Origin: a virus | DNA: 64,000 bases | Direction: 5' to 3' (one strand) | Virus record (IMG/VR): IMGVR_UViG_3300042505_000752 | Span: 1 to 64,000 of that record | In this document: positions 1 to 10,817 of the stretch, one piece after another | Position numbering within the stretch: the stretch's first letter is position 1 | How the letters are laid out: the number at the start of each line of letters is the position of its first letter | The notes under the pieces: model-generated | The model's input: only the letters and a program-made list of their open reading frames with translations | What the model was told of the DNA's origin: nothing | Databases searched by the model: none | Program-made: the position numbers and the translations under genes

Positions 1-214
1 TTTGTAGTCGTACTCGTGTGCTCGTGACTTTCTTTTGCTCTGTTGCCTTGCGTGTCAAGCGACCCCAACCCCAACTAGTAGGTGACTTCACTTCGCTTTG
101 CTTTGCCTTGCGTGTCAAGTAAAAGTGCGCGACAAGTGTGTCATTGGGATTGAACTCTGACAATTCATCTATGAGCATTTGTACTGTCATCTTTGTAGAT
201 ATGTTGCGTGTCAT
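1..214 (-). CDS. Hypothetical early protein, truncated at the window edge (absent from the ORF track)
   Basis: ATG at 214 follows an AAAGGACAAAGC RBS and the promoter at 245-273. The frame stays open to position 1: MTRNISTKMTVQMLIDELSEFNPNDTLVAHFYLTRKAKQSEVK... Confidence 0.55.
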   Translation of the reverse strand, partial: MTRNISTKMTVQMLIDELSEFNPNDTLVAHFYLTRKAKQSEVKSPTSWGWGRLTRKATEQKKVTSTRVRLQ

Positions 215-244
215 GCTTTGTCCTTTAGTAGTGGTGACAAGGTA

Positions 245-273
245 ATCATACACACCTATCAACCAAAAAGCAA
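245..273 (-). promoter_or_regulatory. Sigma70/SigA-type promoter
   Basis: The minus strand reads TTGCTT-17 nt-TATGAT. The promoter at 3318-3346 has the same architecture. Confidence 0.7.
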
Positions 274-317
274 CCTTTATCAAAAGAAATATTTATAATA
301 GTTATGTGACAAATGTC

Positions 318-469
318 TGTGGATAAGGTGTGGATAACTCTGTACACAGGCTGTGGGTAACGCTGTGGATAACCATGCGTGCTGTGGATAGTGCTGTGTA
401 TAACCTGTGGATAACTACATGACCAAAGTGTGGATAACTAGCACCAACTGTGGACAAAGGTGGGGATAA
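318..469. repeat. Array of 10 co-oriented DnaA-box 9-mers (oriC-like or DnaA-titration site)
   Basis: TGTGGATAA at 318, 329, 364, 406 and 429; TGTGTATAA at 395; TGTGGACAA at 449; single-mismatch copies at 352, 383 and 461. An AT-rich tract lies at about 277-305. Confidence 0.85.
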
Positions 470-633
470 CTGTTGCGAAAACGAGGATGCGGGGCTATTT
501 TTCGGACGACCTCAGAACAGGGGGGAAGAGACACACACACCATATTGCATTGTTTCCATATAGATTTATCCAAAGTCGGGGTAGTGCACTACTCCTTGGT
601 CTGGAATAATGCACTCCCCTAACTTAGTCGTGA

Positions 634-861
634 TTACAGCGACGCAATAAATTCTTGCGATGCGCTGTCGTATGCGACGAGTGACAAGCCTGCACAACCC
701 AGTGCGTCCAGTAGGAGGTTAGGTGTGATTTCGCCACCATCATTCTCATACGGCATGAATTGCGTGAGTTCTTTGAGGAGGGCTTCTGCATAAAGCGTTT
801 GCTTACCATCCGTAAGTTTTTGTAGTGTTTTTTCTTCTGTTGAGTTAAGTATGATTTCCAT
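634..861 (-). CDS. Hypothetical protein
   Basis: C-terminal part of track ORF 634..1050. The likely start is MEIILNS at 861, after GGAAGG. Confidence 0.6.
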   Translation of the reverse strand: MEIILNSTEEKTLQKLTDGKQTLYAEALLKELTQFMPYENDGGEITPNLLLDALGCAGLSLVAYDSASQEFIASL

Positions 862-871
862 AGTTGATATT

Positions 872-1075
872 CTACCTTCCAGTTTCAGTATTGTCAAGTG
901 TTTGTTTGATTTGTCGTTTACCATTTTTACTCGTGGATAGTCCGTTGATGCACTTGTGGTTTTTATGCCAGTCTTCAACATGTTTCCATTCGCCCCATCT
1001 GAATGATTTTCTATTACAGAGGGTGCATTGACCCCTATGATTTTTACCAATTGTTATGTTTTTTAGGGTTAACAT
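872..1075 (-). CDS. Hypothetical protein with CxxC
   Basis: Part of track ORF 872..1207. The likely start is MLTLKN at 1075, and the protein contains CTLC. Confidence 0.5.
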   Translation of the reverse strand: MLTLKNITIGKNHRGQCTLCNRKSFRWGEWKHVEDWHKNHKCINGLSTSKNGKRQIKQTLDNTETGR

Positions 1076-1256
1076 TTTTATTTGCTCTGCGTTGTTTTCG
1101 TTTAGATTTATCTGACTTTTTCTCATACTCGCGCATTTCTTCTTCGTAATATTTTTGCCATTTGCGATGAGAAATTTGCTTTCTGATGACATCTCTCGCG
1201 TAATCAAAAAACATGATTCCTTGGATTGTCAGACTGATTGTCAAGATTGTTTTCAT
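1044..1256 (-). CDS. Hypothetical protein with a hydrophobic N-terminus and basic tail
   Basis: 70-aa ORF whose start overlaps the upstream stop by 4 nt (ATGA). Confidence 0.6.
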   Translation of the reverse strand: MKTILTISLTIQGIMFFDYARDVIRKQISHRKWQKYYEEEMREYEKKSDKSKRKQRRANKNVNPKKHNNW

Positions 1257-3379: not shown

Positions 3380-3712
3380 TTAGTCACCGATAGTTTTGGT
3401 AAATTTGCTTTCTTTTACTTTTTTAAGAATTCTTAAGATGTCATCTTCCGAAGCATCGTCAACAATGAAGAGTTCTGCTTCGGATGTTGAACCTAAATTC
3501 ATTTTATAACAGTCTTTGATAAATTCATATGATTGACCAATCAATTGTTGCTTGGTGTTTTTAGTATAGCAAACGGTATCATTTTTTTCATTTAGAAGTA
3601 CGGCAAATGGAATATCCCCATTTTCGTACTCATAGTAAAAAATTGCTGGGTATGTGAACTTTTCTTTTAAATTCTGTCTTGCGCGTTTGGTAACATCTAA
3701 ATCCTGCTTCAT
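3380..3712 (-). CDS. Hypothetical protein
   Basis: The likely start is MKQDL at 3712, coupled (TGATG) to the kinase gene stop. Confidence 0.65.
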   Translation of the reverse strand: MKQDLDVTKRARQNLKEKFTYPAIFYYEYENGDIPFAVLLNEKNDTVCYTKNTKQQLIGQSYEFIKDCYKMNLGSTSEAELFIVDDASEDDILRILKKVKESKFTKTIGD

Positions 3713-5754
3713 CACAATCCACCATTCCATGGAACAGAAGTTGTGTCTTTGATTGCTTGAATAAGTGCAGTTGGGTTATCTTCTAAATATTTAAGTCGTG
3801 TCATAGCAAGTGTCCTCATGGCGTTAATATGTGCTTCCTCGGTGGGTGTCAATTCTATACCACGACTTCTTAATCTGTCAAGAGATAAAATTTCATCAAT
3901 TTGAGCACGAAATTTTTTCATGGCAATTTTTTGCCCTTCGGTGAATTGCCTCATTGCCTCTGGGTCGCTTGAAATTCTTGTTCCGAATGTACCCAAATAA
4001 TTAAAAAAGATATTTCCGCCACTAGCAGCGTAATTTGTTGGAGTCATATCTTTGCGATTTTCAGCATGTTCTTCAAATTCGTAACCCTCTACCTCCACAT
4101 CGTGTCCTATTGACATCAATTCTGGGGCACGACCTCCAAACATTAAGCCGTTATCAATTACGCCAAGTCTTTGATTCCCATCTTCGTCATATGCGACCTT
4201 AATATTGTTTTCATGCCTATCAAGGTTGTCAAAAATATAATCAAGTGCTAAAACTTGAGCAACATCCTGAGGACTGACTTTATCTGAGTCAACCCCACCC
4301 ACGCGACCAGAGTCAACCCAATAGGAGGGTTTGCCATCTTCTGTTTGAATCTTTAAAGGCACTGTCCTGTCCCATGATTCAATGCTTCTCATTGCTGTCC
4401 AGCGAACTTTTCTTCCCATTGGGTCGTTCCAATCTGGATTTCGTGGATCAACAACTGGGACTTGTGTTCCAGTGCGAATTTCTTTAGGATCGTTTTTTGA
4501 CGCAAGATCAAGGAGGGCTGATGCTTCCATTCCGATGTTTTCAAGAATTCCGTCGTTAGAACCAAAAGTTGAAGCCTTCAAATACCAAACTTCTCCAGTT
4601 TCTTTGTCTTCTACTTTAAATACAGTCCAAAGACCACCGTACTCATGTCCGCCAACCGAGTCTTTTCCTTGGTTTCCTTTTAGTGTCTTAAATTTGAAGC
4701 GTTTATTTTCAAATGTTGCCTTGGCTGCAATGTCCGAAAATATGACGCTTTCGTCAAAGTTGCCCGTCATAATATCCTCAAATGTGATGTCAATACCTTG
4801 AGGATTTAGTAGACCTAGCCCACTATTTTCATCAATAATAATATTTTCGTCAAAGATTGCGGCTGCAAAAATGTCATCATCAAGGTCAGCGACATCGCCA
4901 CCTCCATAGTGAATATCGGCTACAGCATTGCGATACTTCTCGTCATCAATTGTACTAATGCGGGTTGGACCAATAAGTTCAGCCTTTGCTTCTTCTGCTC
5001 CAGCAAATTGGACCTTAGGCTTGCCATATCGCATAACCTGTACGCCGTCAGGAACATTGCCTGATCCGCCAATTCTGTCAATAAAATCATCGTAGTCTCG
5101 TTTTGAAAGAACCAATATTTCTTTATCCGTCTCAACGACATAATGGTCACCCGAAGTAAATGCGAGTTCTTGTGCTTTTTCGTCAGCACGCTTAAATGCG
5201 CGATTTCTATTGATACGAATAGGGACACGCTGGTCTTGAGGTAAGCCTCGTGCAAGGGCACTAAATGCATCTTCAAAATCTTCTGCTGGCTCTTCTGGGG
5301 CACTGGCATTTGCAATGCTTGCATCAAAACCAAGACGATCTTGTGAAATTTCACTAGATGGCTGTGGAGGGTCAAGAATGTTCTCAACCGATGGAACCCG
5401 AGTTTCAAGACCGGGATATCCAATTTCCTCAAGCGATGACGATCCGAGTGATAGTCCACGCTCTGAAAGTGATGGGTATCCAAGTTTTCCTAATTGAGAA
5501 GGTTTTCCACGCTTCTTAGCATCACCAGCACTGCCATAAGAAGGCTTGTAGGCAATGTCCACACCATCGGAACCGACGACCCTCATTGAGGGACGACTCA
5601 TTGAGGTTATTCCCCGCTGAATATCGTTGCCGATTTCGTCAAGTAAACGACTTCCAACAGGGCGTTCCCACGCTGTACCTTCTTGGACAATGCCGTCGTT
5701 GTCAGCGTCTATGGCATCTGGGTCATAGGGTTCTATGCGTAGTTTTCGTGCCAT
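3712..5754 (-). CDS. Large protein with a C-terminal HipA/PI3-4-kinase-like domain
   Basis: WYLK (ATP-binding Lys), DYIFDNLDRHENN (catalytic) and VIDNGLMF (metal-binding). The N-terminus has a DADNDGIVQEGTAWERP motif. Confidence 0.75.
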   Translation of the reverse strand: MARKLRIEPYDPDAIDADNDGIVQEGTAWERPVGSRLLDEIGNDIQRGITSMSRPSMRVVGSDGVDIAYKPSYGSAGDAKKRGKPSQLGKLGYPSLSERGLSLGSSSLEEIGYPGLETRVPSVENILDPPQPSSEISQDRLGFDASIANASAPEEPAEDFEDAFSALARGLPQDQRVPIRINRNRAFKRADEKAQELAFTSGDHYVVETDKEILVLSKRDYDDFIDRIGGSGNVPDGVQVMRYGKPKVQFAGAEEAKAELIGPTRISTIDDEKYRNAVADIHYGGGDVADLDDDIFAAAIFDENIIIDENSGLGLLNPQGIDITFEDIMTGNFDESVIFSDIAAKATFENKRFKFKTLKGNQGKDSVGGHEYGGLWTVFKVEDKETGEVWYLKASTFGSNDGILENIGMEASALLDLASKNDPKEIRTGTQVPVVDPRNPDWNDPMGRKVRWTAMRSIESWDRTVPLKIQTEDGKPSYWVDSGRVGGVDSDKVSPQDVAQVLALDYIFDNLDRHENNIKVAYDEDGNQRLGVIDNGLMFGGRAPELMSIGHDVEVEGYEFEEHAENRKDMTPTNYAASGGNIFFNYLGTFGTRISSDPEAMRQFTEGQKIAMKKFRAQIDEILSLDRLRSRGIELTPTEEAHINAMRTLAMTRLKYLEDNPTALIQAIKDTTSVPWNGGL

Positions 5755-10563: not shown

Positions 10564-10817
10564 TTTGATATTGCACTCACTCTCCGTGAAACACCCCGTT
10601 CTATTGGTGTCTTTCCTCCCCAAATACCGAATATTTCTTTATTTTCCATAGCGGATAGCAAGCATTGCTCTCTAACTTTACAAATGTTACAAAGTGTCTT
10701 TGCTTGAACCATCAACTTGCGACTTTCACGACTGTTCATCTCTTTTGGGAACCACCATTCTTGTGGTTGCCCCTTGCACATGGCATCTTTAGCCCAATCG
10801 TTATTCTTGAATTCCAT
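10560..10817 (-). CDS. whiB: WhiB-family Fe-S transcription factor
   Basis: Four Cys (C...CxxC...C) and the GIWGG turn motif. Confidence 0.92.
   Translation of the reverse strand: MEFKNNDWAKDAMCKGQPQEWWFPKEMNSRESRKLMVQAKTLCNICKVREQCLLSAMENKEIFGIWGGKTPIERGVSRRVSAISK

What the first reader, a model, noticed from the sequence alone, without database searches (positions are those of the whole stretch)
277..469. Phage-borne oriC mimic: 10 co-oriented DnaA boxes beside an AT-rich tract
Seen in sequence: about 150 bp of non-coding DNA holds five perfect TGTGGATAA boxes, one TGTGTATAA, one TGTGGACAA and three single-mismatch copies. All have the same orientation, with start-to-start gaps of 11, 23, 12, 19, 12, 11, 23, 20 and 12 bp (mostly about one or two helical turns). 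An AT-rich tract (277-305) and an outward-firing promoter (245-273) abut the array. Established: TTATCCACA is the bacterial DnaA box and TTGTCCACA is the Streptomyces/mycobacterial consensus; DnaA-box clusters act as origins (oriC) or as titration sinks (E. coli datA, B. subtilis DBCs). Inference: a phage that encodes its own primase-helicase either recruits host DnaA to open its origin, or sequesters DnaA to stall host replication as phage copy number rises. DnaA control of the adjacent promoter is a third option.
Basis: partly seen in the sequence, partly recalled or inferred. Interest (0 to 1): 0.82.

Follow-up and report, generated by a model that had tools for sequence, protein, structure and literature searches.

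The report
Phage array of host DnaA sites
A 129-kb virus of actinobacteria carries ten same-direction, helically phased binding sites for DnaA, the host protein that starts DNA copying, as one of eight such clusters, so it most likely captures or redirects that protein rather than copying a bacterial origin.

Summary
Ten co-oriented TGTGGATAA-type boxes (5 perfect, 5 with one mismatch) lie at 318-469 with exactly the reported spacings. They are phased at 11.0 bp, and an AT-rich tract and a leftward promoter sit beside them.

The array is not an isolated oriC copy:
- The record closes into a ~128.8-kb circle, so the array is internal.
- It is one of eight DnaA-box clusters: 60 boxes, 30 perfect against 0.28 expected. 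All lie in the 28-kb early region. This scan had already noted the largest, at 115.3-115.9 kb.
- The host is actinobacterial (two WhiB genes, a LexA-box array).
- The phage has no dnaA and no family A or B DNA polymerase.

Boxes change less than spacers in a 91-97% identical sister genome. However, 35 more distant relatives and a 137-kb syntenic relative have no arrays, and the DnaA-trio criterion for an unwinding module is not met.

The other clusters are built from an inverted-plus-two-direct box unit with the orientation logic of the E. coli DARS core. That unit is common in uncultured viruses: at least 118 convergent pairs against 2 divergent.

Best reading: an accessory dock or sponge for host DnaA (0.42). 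An origin role is possible (0.25). DnaA binding itself is inferred, not shown.

The parts
1..214 (-). 5' part of a small basic-protein gene (about 77 aa). Its start codon is at 214-212, its ribosome-binding site AAAGGA at 227-222, and its 3' end lies across the circular junction of the record.
   Evidence: Sequence. The full ORF is read in the sister genome at L223:9412-9711. The ends of the record overlap by 193 bp.
245..274 (-). Leftward promoter GTTGCTT-N17-TATGAT that fires away from the array. It is a member of the genome's repeated one-gene cassette promoter family.
   Evidence: The pattern search finds 23 family members, including this site. Its -35 element lies 44 bp from the first box.
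275..316 (.). AT-rich tract (82% A+T) that abuts the array on the 5' side of the TGTGGATAA-oriented boxes. This is the same polarity as the unwinding element next to box R1 in E. coli oriC.
   Evidence: Top 0.24% of 40-bp windows. It is about 60 bp longer in the sister genome. No DnaA-trio run lies within 16 nt of the box.
318..469 (+). Array of 10 co-oriented DnaA boxes, starting at 318, 329, 352, 364, 383, 395, 406, 429, 449 and 461. Five are perfect and five have one mismatch. The array is phased at 11.0 bp.
   Evidence: Boxes are conserved against spacers in the sister genome.
473..501 (+). TTGCGA-N17-TATTTT, a promoter-like element 3 bp after the last box. It contains the recurring motif GCGGGGCTA (489-497). 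Its function is not established.
   Evidence: The motif occurs 14 times, 12 on the + strand, only in the early region and here. A similar arrangement of boxes followed by GGGGC...CTA is seen in other viral contigs. There is no ORF downstream and no Rfam family.
566..574 (-). Isolated weak box TTATCCAAA (one mismatch) in the opposite orientation.
   Evidence: It is conserved in the sister genome.
634..861 (-). Upstream leftward small gene (about 75 aa) whose 3' end precedes the array. Its own promoter TTGACA-N17-TAGAAT lies at 897-869.

Best explanation
The array is a high-density, cooperative docking site for the host initiator DnaA. It is one element of a phage-wide set of about 60 DnaA boxes in eight clusters.

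Proposed mechanism:
1. After entry, the early region exposes consensus boxes that bind DnaA through its domain IV.
2. On this array the boxes are co-oriented, 2-3 bp apart or two helical turns apart, and phased at 11 bp. Bound DnaA can therefore form a head-to-tail oligomer on one face of the DNA, as on the left half of oriC or on datA.
3. The other clusters are built from a unit of one inverted box plus two direct boxes. That unit has the orientation logic of the E. coli DARS core.
4. The net effect proposed is that the phage captures DnaA, and possibly changes its nucleotide state. This diverts DnaA from the host origin and from DnaA-regulated genes.
5. Such diversion suits a phage that has no DNA polymerase of its own and must take over the host replisome.

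Shown here: sequence identity with the DnaA box, enrichment, phasing, conservation of boxes against spacers, the distribution of clusters, and the absence of a shared phage-encoded binder among the candidates tested.

Inferred, not shown: DnaA binding itself, oligomer formation, and any effect on the host.
For: - Exact consensus. TGTGGATAA is the most frequent 9-mer of the genome, at 31 copies.
- Enrichment. There are 30 perfect boxes in the 28.4-kb early region against 0.28 expected, and 1 in the other 100 kb against about 1 expected.
- Distribution. The eight clusters sit in gene-free gaps, several directly after gene 3' ends and hairpins where no promoter or origin feature is evident.
- Affinity. 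Half of all boxes are full-consensus high-affinity sites, unlike a regulated origin, which relies on weak sites. The comparison with origins rests on established knowledge of E. coli oriC.
- Conservation. Boxes show 9 substitutions in 436 aligned positions, against 86 in 1595 for the surrounding non-coding DNA (Fisher p = 0.003). Copy number changes by whole-unit indels. This suggests selection on box presence rather than on a fixed architecture.
- Phasing. The 11.0-bp phase is kept in the sister genome.
- Patchy occurrence. Arrays are absent from 35 relatives and from the 137-kb genome G001, which share the primase-helicase at about 60% identity. The arrays are therefore an accessory, not the family's core origin.
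- A second host-regulator array. Eight LexA boxes lie at 117477-117640. LexA and DnaA boxes are adjacent in a diverged relative.
- No shared phage binder among the candidates tested. The same box arrangements occur in many unrelated viral contigs and in Streptomyces phage Faust. No dnaA-like gene lies in about 300 flanks, and the 1080-aa multi-HTH protein is not shared.
- Dependence on the host replisome. The phage has no dnaA and no PolA or PolB.
Against: - No binding data exist.
- A pure sponge needs neither strict co-orientation, nor 11-bp phasing, nor an adjacent AT-rich tract. Those features fit an origin better, although tandem duplication of 11-, 12- and 23-bp units would also create them.
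- The benefit of titrating DnaA during a lytic cycle is unproven.
- The host, and the number of DnaA molecules per host cell, are unknown.
- The array also lies next to two promoter-like elements, so a regulatory role could be primary.
Confidence: 0.42

Rival explanations
1. DnaA-dependent phage origin. A host DnaA oligomer assembled on the ten phased boxes opens the adjacent AT-rich tract, helped by transcription from the neighbouring promoter. The phage primase-helicase and the host polymerase then load there.
For: - Co-oriented boxes with 2-3 bp gaps and 11-bp phasing resemble the oriC DnaA-oligomerisation region.
- The AT-rich tract lies on the side expected from E. coli oriC and from the layout of box, then spacer, then unwinding site.
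- The tract is longer in the sister genome.
- The phage lacks DNA polymerases A and B, and no initiator was recognised.
- In other viral groups the box module sits beside iteron-like repeats and AT-rich DNA.
Against: - No DnaA-trio run lies within 16 nt of a box. The first run of three or more triplets starts 25 nt away, inside generally AT-rich DNA.
- The tract is only 40 bp long and is not the least stable site of the genome.
- There are eight clusters, and the largest is elsewhere.
- Relatives with the same replication genes have no boxes.
- Box number varies between near-identical genomes.
- GC skew is uninformative.
Confidence: 0.25
2. DnaA acts here as a transcription factor or roadblock. 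The array couples the flanking promoters to the host's DnaA-ATP level, or insulates the one-gene cassettes from read-through.
For: - The array starts 44 bp upstream of the -35 of a cassette promoter (245-274, minus strand) and ends 3 bp before TTGCGA-N17-TATTTT (473-501).
- The cluster at 101671-101691 lies 17 bp upstream of another cassette promoter.
- Several clusters sit between a stop codon and a hairpin.
- In other viral groups the module lies at a fixed short distance from a GGGCTA motif.
- DnaA-mediated repression, activation and termination are established in E. coli (general knowledge).
Against: - Ten boxes are far more than any known DnaA operator uses.
- Most of the 23 cassette promoters have no boxes.
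- The GCGGGGCTA motif does not behave like a -10 element, because its last position is not conserved (and my own reading).
- The consensus promoter scan finds no more sites here than in shuffled sequence.
Confidence: 0.13
3. The repeats are binding sites for a phage-encoded DNA-binding protein, for example the 1080-aa multi-HTH protein, that happens to share the DnaA-box sequence.
For: - TTATCCACA-N3-TGTGGATAA is a perfect palindrome, of the kind dimeric repressors use. The orientation bias of at least 118 against 2 would also fit such a protein.
- The multi-HTH protein is largely missing from G001, which has no boxes.
Against: - Long runs of direct repeats (10 here, up to 9 elsewhere) do not suit a dimer on a palindrome.
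- The motif is identical in phages of GC 0.31-0.58 and in cultured Streptomyces and T5-like phages.
- The multi-HTH protein has no homologue in five complete genomes that carry the module.
- The motif is the exact universal DnaA consensus.
Confidence: 0.1
4. T5-like role in DNA entry. DnaA boxes in the first-injected DNA tether or pause the genome at membrane-bound DnaA.
For: T5-like phages keep eight DnaA boxes, in pairs 3 bp apart, in the non-coding injection-stop region. This function has been proposed but not tested (bioRxiv 10.1101/866236). Here the boxes are likewise confined to a region of small early genes.
Against: The physical ends and the direction of packaging are unknown, because the record is a closed circle. 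This phage is a myovirus unrelated to T5. Sixty boxes spread over 28 kb is not a single stop site.
Confidence: 0.06
5. Assembly artefact: host oriC DNA joined to a phage contig.
For: The array lies within 320 bp of the end of the record.
Against: The ends of the record overlap, and the junction is continuous in an independent 145-kb assembly from another sample, with phage genes on both sides. There is no dnaA or dnaN in the record. Seven other clusters lie inside the same genome.
Confidence: 0.01

Closest known systems
E. coli oriC, left DnaA-oligomerisation region next to the unwinding element
   Same: A run of same-direction DnaA boxes 2-3 bp apart, with an AT-rich tract on the 5' side of the TGTGGATAA-oriented boxes. 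The 11-bp repeat allows a head-to-tail DnaA oligomer.
   Different: Half the boxes here are full consensus, whereas oriC uses mostly weak sites. There are no DnaA-trios or 13-mers, no opposing right-half array and no dnaA/dnaN context. The array is on a phage and is absent from that phage's relatives.
DnaA titration and inactivation loci (E. coli datA; the B. subtilis DnaA-box clusters)
   Same: Clusters of high-affinity boxes outside the origin, several per genome, in intergenic DNA. They are thought to lower free DnaA or active DnaA.
   Different: Much denser here (10 boxes in 152 bp; 60 per 129 kb) and carried by a virus. No IHF-type site was sought or found. An effect on initiation is untested.
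E. coli DARS1/DARS2 core (DnaA-reactivating sequence)
   Same: The unit of the phage's other clusters is one box facing two co-oriented boxes. DARS1, read from MG1655, has the same orientation: TTATCCACT, 5 bp, TGTGGATAA, 3 bp, TGTGTATTA (PMC6868365). The sister genome's copy of this array begins with such a unit.
   Different: The spacer between boxes I and II is 3-4 bp here, not 5 bp. The window's own array has lost the inverted box and is purely co-oriented. I know of no DARS described in Actinobacteria. Nucleotide-exchange activity is untested.
Injection-stop region of T5-like phages
   Same: A phage-borne, non-coding, conserved set of DnaA boxes in pairs 3 bp apart within the early region. 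The function is proposed but untested (10.1101/866236).
   Different: T5 has 8 boxes at one locus inside the terminal repeat. This phage has 60 boxes in eight clusters, an unrelated virion type, and unknown ends.
P1 oriR and iteron-plasmid origins that use DnaA boxes
   Same: A mobile replicon that places host DnaA boxes beside AT-rich DNA.
   Different: Those origins combine a few DnaA boxes with iterons for their own Rep protein. No iterons and no Rep gene were recognised here.

Membership tests
oriC-type DnaA-dependent origin | Cluster of DnaA boxes arranged for oligomer formation (same direction, short regular gaps) | tested here: met
   Ten co-oriented boxes with gaps of 2-3 bp or about two helical turns. 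The period is 11.0 bp, vector strength 0.88, p = 0.003.
oriC-type DnaA-dependent origin | AT-rich unwinding element adjacent to the boxes, on the correct side | tested here: inconclusive
   The 40-bp tract is 82% A+T and the polarity is correct. But it is short, it is not the genome's least stable site, and it serves as the upstream region of a promoter.
oriC-type DnaA-dependent origin | DnaA-trios: at least three triplets with the conserved middle base within 16 nt of a box (basal unwinding system, PMC8287927) | tested here: not met
   Reading the minus strand from the box at 326-318, the first run of at least three triplets starts 25 nt away and does not match the CTA/GAT consensus.
oriC-type DnaA-dependent origin | Kept in relatives that share the replication module | tested here: not met
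   Present in the 91-97% identical G011 only. Absent from 35 relatives and from the syntenic genome G001.
oriC-type DnaA-dependent origin | DnaA-dependent unwinding and autonomous replication | not testable with these tools
   Needs P1-nuclease or KMnO4 assays and a minichromosome test.
DnaA titration locus (datA / DnaA-box clusters) | Cluster of high-affinity boxes outside the chromosomal origin, several per genome | tested here: met
   Eight clusters with 30 perfect boxes, against 0.28 expected.
DnaA titration locus (datA / DnaA-box clusters) | Lowers the initiation potential of the cell | not testable with these tools
   Needs multicopy or infection experiments with an ori:ter read-out.
DARS core | Three boxes, with box I opposite to boxes II and III | tested here: not met
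   The window array is all one direction. The feature is met by the sister genome's copy of this array and by eight other units in this genome.
DARS core | 5-bp spacer between boxes I and II, as in E. coli | tested here: not met
   Convergent pairs in this genome have gaps of 3 bp (8 cases) or 4 bp (4 cases). DARS1 has 5 bp.
DARS core | Promotes ADP release from DnaA | not testable with these tools
   Needs a labelled ADP-DnaA dissociation assay.
T5-type injection-stop DnaA boxes | Box pairs 3 bp apart in non-coding early DNA | tested here: met
T5-type injection-stop DnaA boxes | Location in the terminal repeat, which is the DNA that enters first | not testable with these tools
   The record is a closed circle.
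Iteron origin with its own Rep protein | Repeats specific to a replicon-encoded initiator whose gene lies nearby | tested here: not met
   The repeat is the universal DnaA box. No Rep or initiator family was found in the proteins scanned, which include those around the array.

The most novel reading that the evidence does not exclude
Large phages of actinobacteria, and many other uncultured viruses, carry a DNA-only toolkit for taking over the host initiator. DARS-core-like triple units would recharge or strip DnaA. Long co-oriented phased arrays such as this one would then assemble the captured DnaA-ATP into an oligomer. That oligomer would either start phage replication with the host replisome or hold DnaA away from oriC. 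This would be the first viral counterpart of the chromosomal datA/DARS regulatory loci.
Probability: 0.2. Interest if true: 0.9.

Novelty: new variant of a known kind. Interest (0 to 1): 0.72.

Why it matters
DnaA-box clusters are textbook elements of bacterial chromosomes (oriC, datA, DARS) and of a few plasmids and phages (P1, lambda, the T5 injection-stop region).

Here a lytic-type phage with no dnaA and no polymerase gives several hundred bases to about 60 boxes. The same oriented box units recur in hundreds of viral contigs from hosts of very different GC content. In the paper library I could search, no study treats this as a general phage strategy.

If DnaA binding and a host effect are shown, this would be a protein-free way for viruses to control host replication initiation. 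It would also give a direct handle on how the orientation and spacing of DnaA boxes set function. The cultured Streptomyces phage Faust carries the same triple unit, so the question is open to experiment.

Tried and rejected
- **blastn against cultured phages.** Window 1-1200 gave no match.
- **Host placement by the ribonucleotide reductase.** The search in bacterial genomes returned only one 'Bacteroidia' MAG contig at 75% identity, probably a mis-binned phage contig, so it says nothing about the host.
- **The genome search 'relatives'.** Not available for a virus record. I therefore could not compare the array with a candidate host's oriC.
- **Metagenome scan for more variants of this array.** An 18-mer search returned only unrelated chance hits.
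- **Rfam search of the early region and window start.** Nothing relevant.
- **Promoter reading of GCGGGGCTA.** I considered it and dropped it as unsupported, because the last position of the putative -10 is not conserved.
- **Consensus promoter/terminator scan of 1-1300.** No more sites than in shuffled sequence. It did not list the cassette promoter at 245-274, which I placed by the family pattern instead.
- **A different repeat at the same position in relatives.** None found.
- **Phage-plasmid lifestyle.** No tyrosine integrase was found. The two ParB_N-domain proteins lie beside the terminase and are shared with G001, so they do not argue for plasmid partition.
- **Host contamination or chimera.** Rejected.

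Full report
**1. The observation**

The sequence at 277-469 is as described. One search places ten boxes on the + strand at 318, 329, 352, 364, 383, 395, 406, 429, 449 and 461. Five are perfect TGTGGATAA. The others are TGTGGGTAA, TGTGGATAG, TGTGTATAA, TGTGGACAA and TGGGGATAA.

With about 35 one-mismatch hits expected per 129 kb, ten in 152 bp cannot be chance. The boxes are also in helical register. A periodogram peaks at 11.0 bp with vector strength 0.88, and only 0.3% of random gap placements reach that value.

The AT-rich tract at 277-316 is 82% A+T, in the top 0.24% of 40-bp windows. The element at 245-274 on the minus strand, GTTGCTT-N17-TATGAT, belongs to a 23-copy promoter family of this genome. 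It drives a small gene that starts at 214.

**2. What the DNA is**

- The window is the first half of a 128,966-bp viral record.
- Bases 1-193 repeat at 128774-128966 with one mismatch. An independent 145-kb assembly, G011, is 91-97% identical and runs straight through the junction. The genome is therefore a closed or permuted circle of about 128.8 kb, and the array is internal, between two leftward small genes.
- The virus is a myovirus: it has a tail sheath, portal, large terminase and HK97-type capsid.
- It has a primase-helicase, ribonucleotide reductase, ThyX, a DNA methylase and an SNF2 helicase.
- It has no dnaA and no DnaA C-terminal domain, no family A or B DNA polymerase, no tRNA and no tyrosine integrase.
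- Three lines point to an actinobacterial host: two WhiB genes, primase-helicase relatives in Arthrobacter, Gordonia and Microbacterium phages, and LexA boxes of the CGAAC-N4-GTTC type. At 42% G+C, a low-GC freshwater actinobacterium is likely, but I could not test that.

**3. The array is one of eight**

- A whole-genome scan finds 31 perfect boxes and 73 boxes with up to one mismatch. TGTGGATAA is the commonest 9-mer of the genome.
- Thirty perfect boxes lie in the 28.4-kb early region (101 kb through the junction to 0.6 kb), where 0.28 are expected. The other 100 kb hold one.
- The clusters in record coordinates are 101671-101691, 106165-106196, 107336-107380, 115306-115933 (about 30 boxes, with three palindromes between them), 116701-116722 and 127385-127417, plus this one.
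- Neighbouring boxes are 11-13 bp apart in 32 of 39 cases.
- Several small clusters sit right after a stop codon or a hairpin.

**4. Evidence of selection, and its limits**

Against G011, box positions carry 9 substitutions in 436 aligned sites. The surrounding non-coding DNA carries 86 in 1595 (Fisher p = 0.003). The arrays differ by whole-unit insertions and deletions. G011's copy of this array has 12 boxes, a 60-bp longer AT-rich tract and the same 11-bp phase.

Beyond that genome the arrays vanish:
- G001 is a 137-kb syntenic relative (large terminase 85% identical, primase-helicase about 60%). It has one perfect box and no cluster.
- None of 35 relatives sharing the neighbouring phosphoesterase at 59-81% identity has a cluster within 5 kb, and none has another repeat in its place.
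- One diverged relative (SNF2 helicase 59% identical) does have four DnaA boxes directly after a run of LexA boxes.

The arrays are therefore a patchy accessory, not the conserved origin of this phage family.

**5. Origin tests**

- The polarity is right. The AT-rich tract lies 5' of the TGTGGATAA-oriented boxes, as the unwinding element lies next to R1 in E. coli. It also matches the order of box, spacer, then unwinding site in the basal unwinding system.
- The defining DnaA-trios are missing. Reading away from the box at 318-326, the first run of three or more triplets with the required middle base starts 25 nt out. That is beyond the 16-nt limit of the published search rule, it lies in generally AT-rich DNA, and it does not match the consensus.
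- Cumulative GC skew has its minimum at 59.9 kb, where the two large operons diverge, and its maximum at 3.8 kb. It follows gene orientation and gives no support.
- The most AT-rich DNA of the genome is at 113.56-113.64 kb, not here.

**6. A wider pattern**

The other clusters are built from one inverted box followed by two direct boxes, with gaps of 3-4 and 2-3 bp. There are eight such units in this genome. G011's copy of the window array starts with one; the window's copy has lost the inverted box through a deletion.

I read E. coli DARS1 from MG1655. Its core is TTATCCACT, 5 bp, TGTGGATAA, 3 bp, TGTGTATTA. That is the same orientation logic: boxes I and II face each other, and II and III are in tandem, as described in PMC6868365. 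The difference is a longer spacer between boxes I and II.

In the viral contig collection:
- The divergent pair of identical composition occurs in 2.
- A 24-base version of the triple unit occurs in 78 stretches, in several unrelated conserved contexts.
- Three perfect tandem boxes occur in at least 120 stretches.
- None of about 300 such loci has a dnaA-like gene in its flanks. Arrays range from 2 to 18 boxes, with co-oriented runs of up to 9, so the run of ten here is extreme.

Among cultured phages, the only blastn hits to the large array are 121-131-kb Streptomyces phages. Phage Faust carries the triple unit in a 1.5-kb gene-free gap. Five complete genomes with the unit have 4-8 perfect boxes in one to three loci. 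None shares the 1080-aa multi-HTH protein of this phage.

A monomeric host factor present in all these hosts, DnaA, explains both the direct and the inverted arrangements better than any phage-encoded dimer.

**7. Literature**

T5-like phages keep eight DnaA boxes, in pairs 3 bp apart, in their non-coding injection-stop region. A role in pausing injection is proposed but untested (10.1101/866236). Other phage papers only report routine origin predictions. Searches for DnaA boxes in actinobacteriophages, or for DnaA-reactivating sequences in phages, found nothing on point. That covers only the library I could search.

**8. Verdict**

It is very probably a DnaA-binding array (about 0.85), but binding is inferred, not shown.

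| Reading | Confidence |
|---|---|
| Accessory dock or sponge for host DnaA, part of a genome-wide set with DARS-like units | 0.42 |
| DnaA-dependent origin. This array is the most origin-like of the eight clusters, but it fails the trio and conservation tests | 0.25 |
| Control of promoters or read-through by DnaA | 0.13 |
| Sites for a phage-encoded binder | 0.10 |
| T5-like role in DNA entry | 0.06 |
| Assembly chimera | 0.01 |

An earlier follow-up in this scan reached a similar 'dock or sponge' reading for the largest array of the same genome (e1-5969308). This report adds the closure of the circle, the absence of arrays in relatives, the 11-bp phasing, the comparison with the DARS core, and the orientation bias across viral contigs.

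Noticed in passing
window 1-193 and record 128774-128966: The two ends of the record are the same 193 bases with one mismatch. The 'linear' record is therefore a closed circle of about 128.8 kb, and a small gene runs across the junction.
   Followed up: yes
record 115306-115933 (L008:15306-15933): This is the largest DnaA-box array, with about 30 boxes in both directions. It is built of inverted-plus-two-direct units separated by three copies of a palindrome (AGTAGTTGTA..TACAAGTAAG). The palindromes may be sites for a second, dimeric protein.
   Followed up: partly
record 117477-117640 (L008:17477-17640): Eight LexA-type boxes (CGAAC-N4-GTTC) lie in tandem just upstream of the SNF2 helicase gene. 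In a diverged relative (L218:200-345), LexA boxes run directly into four DnaA boxes. In E. coli, DARS1 also shares the uvrB control region with LexA sites (abstract of PMC6015884, listed).
   Followed up: partly
window 489-497 and 13 sites in record 96-127 kb: GCGGGGCTA occurs 14 times, 12 on the + strand, and only in the early region. It often lies near CCGCCACCGT or is paired with its own reverse complement to form long hairpins. GGGCTA-type motifs also follow the DnaA unit in two other viral groups. It looks like the 5' end of a tRNA, but no tRNA and no Rfam family is found.
   Followed up: partly
record 100-128 kb and window 245-274: About 20 near-identical promoters GTTGTAATTnTTACAC-N7-TGnTATACT each head a one-gene cassette. 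The -35 and spacer contain a TGTAA-N3-TTACA palindrome, a likely operator.
   Followed up: partly
window 10596-10796 (-), record 93507-93692 (+), G011 L223:7782-8090 (-): The phage has two WhiB-like genes. The sister genome has a third, inserted between the phosphoesterase gene and a DnaA-box cluster.
   Followed up: partly
whole record: No family A or B DNA polymerase is found in a 129-kb phage that does have a primase-helicase, ribonucleotide reductase and ThyX. It presumably uses the host replicase.
   Followed up: partly
record 77997-81239 (L006:13997-17239): A 1080-aa protein in the head operon carries several helix-turn-helix domains (HTH_7, sigma-70 region 4, GerE-like). It is mostly absent from the relative G001. 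It may be a DNA-binding protein delivered with the genome.
   Followed up: partly
window 3712-5754 (-) and record 66829-72948 (+): Two large proteins give weak matches to the PI3/PI4-kinase family, below the curated cut-off.
   Followed up: no
L230:6762-7435 and about 25 similar viral contigs (GC 0.38-0.40): This is a separate phage group. The DnaA triple unit sits in a conserved 670-bp gene-free gap with three CGTAAA-N10-GGCCCACA repeats and AT-rich DNA. The layout resembles an iteron-type origin.
   Followed up: partly
L229:6581-8116 (Streptomyces phage Faust, NC_070783.1 123175-124710): A cultured 131-kb Streptomyces phage carries the same triple DnaA unit in an unannotated 1.5-kb gap full of other repeats. 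It offers a tractable system for testing the function.
   Followed up: partly
L228 (JBDNIH010000009.1): A 25.9-kb contig binned as a 'Bacteroidia' MAG encodes a ribonucleotide reductase 75% identical to the phage's. It is probably a related phage contig placed in the wrong bin.
   Followed up: no
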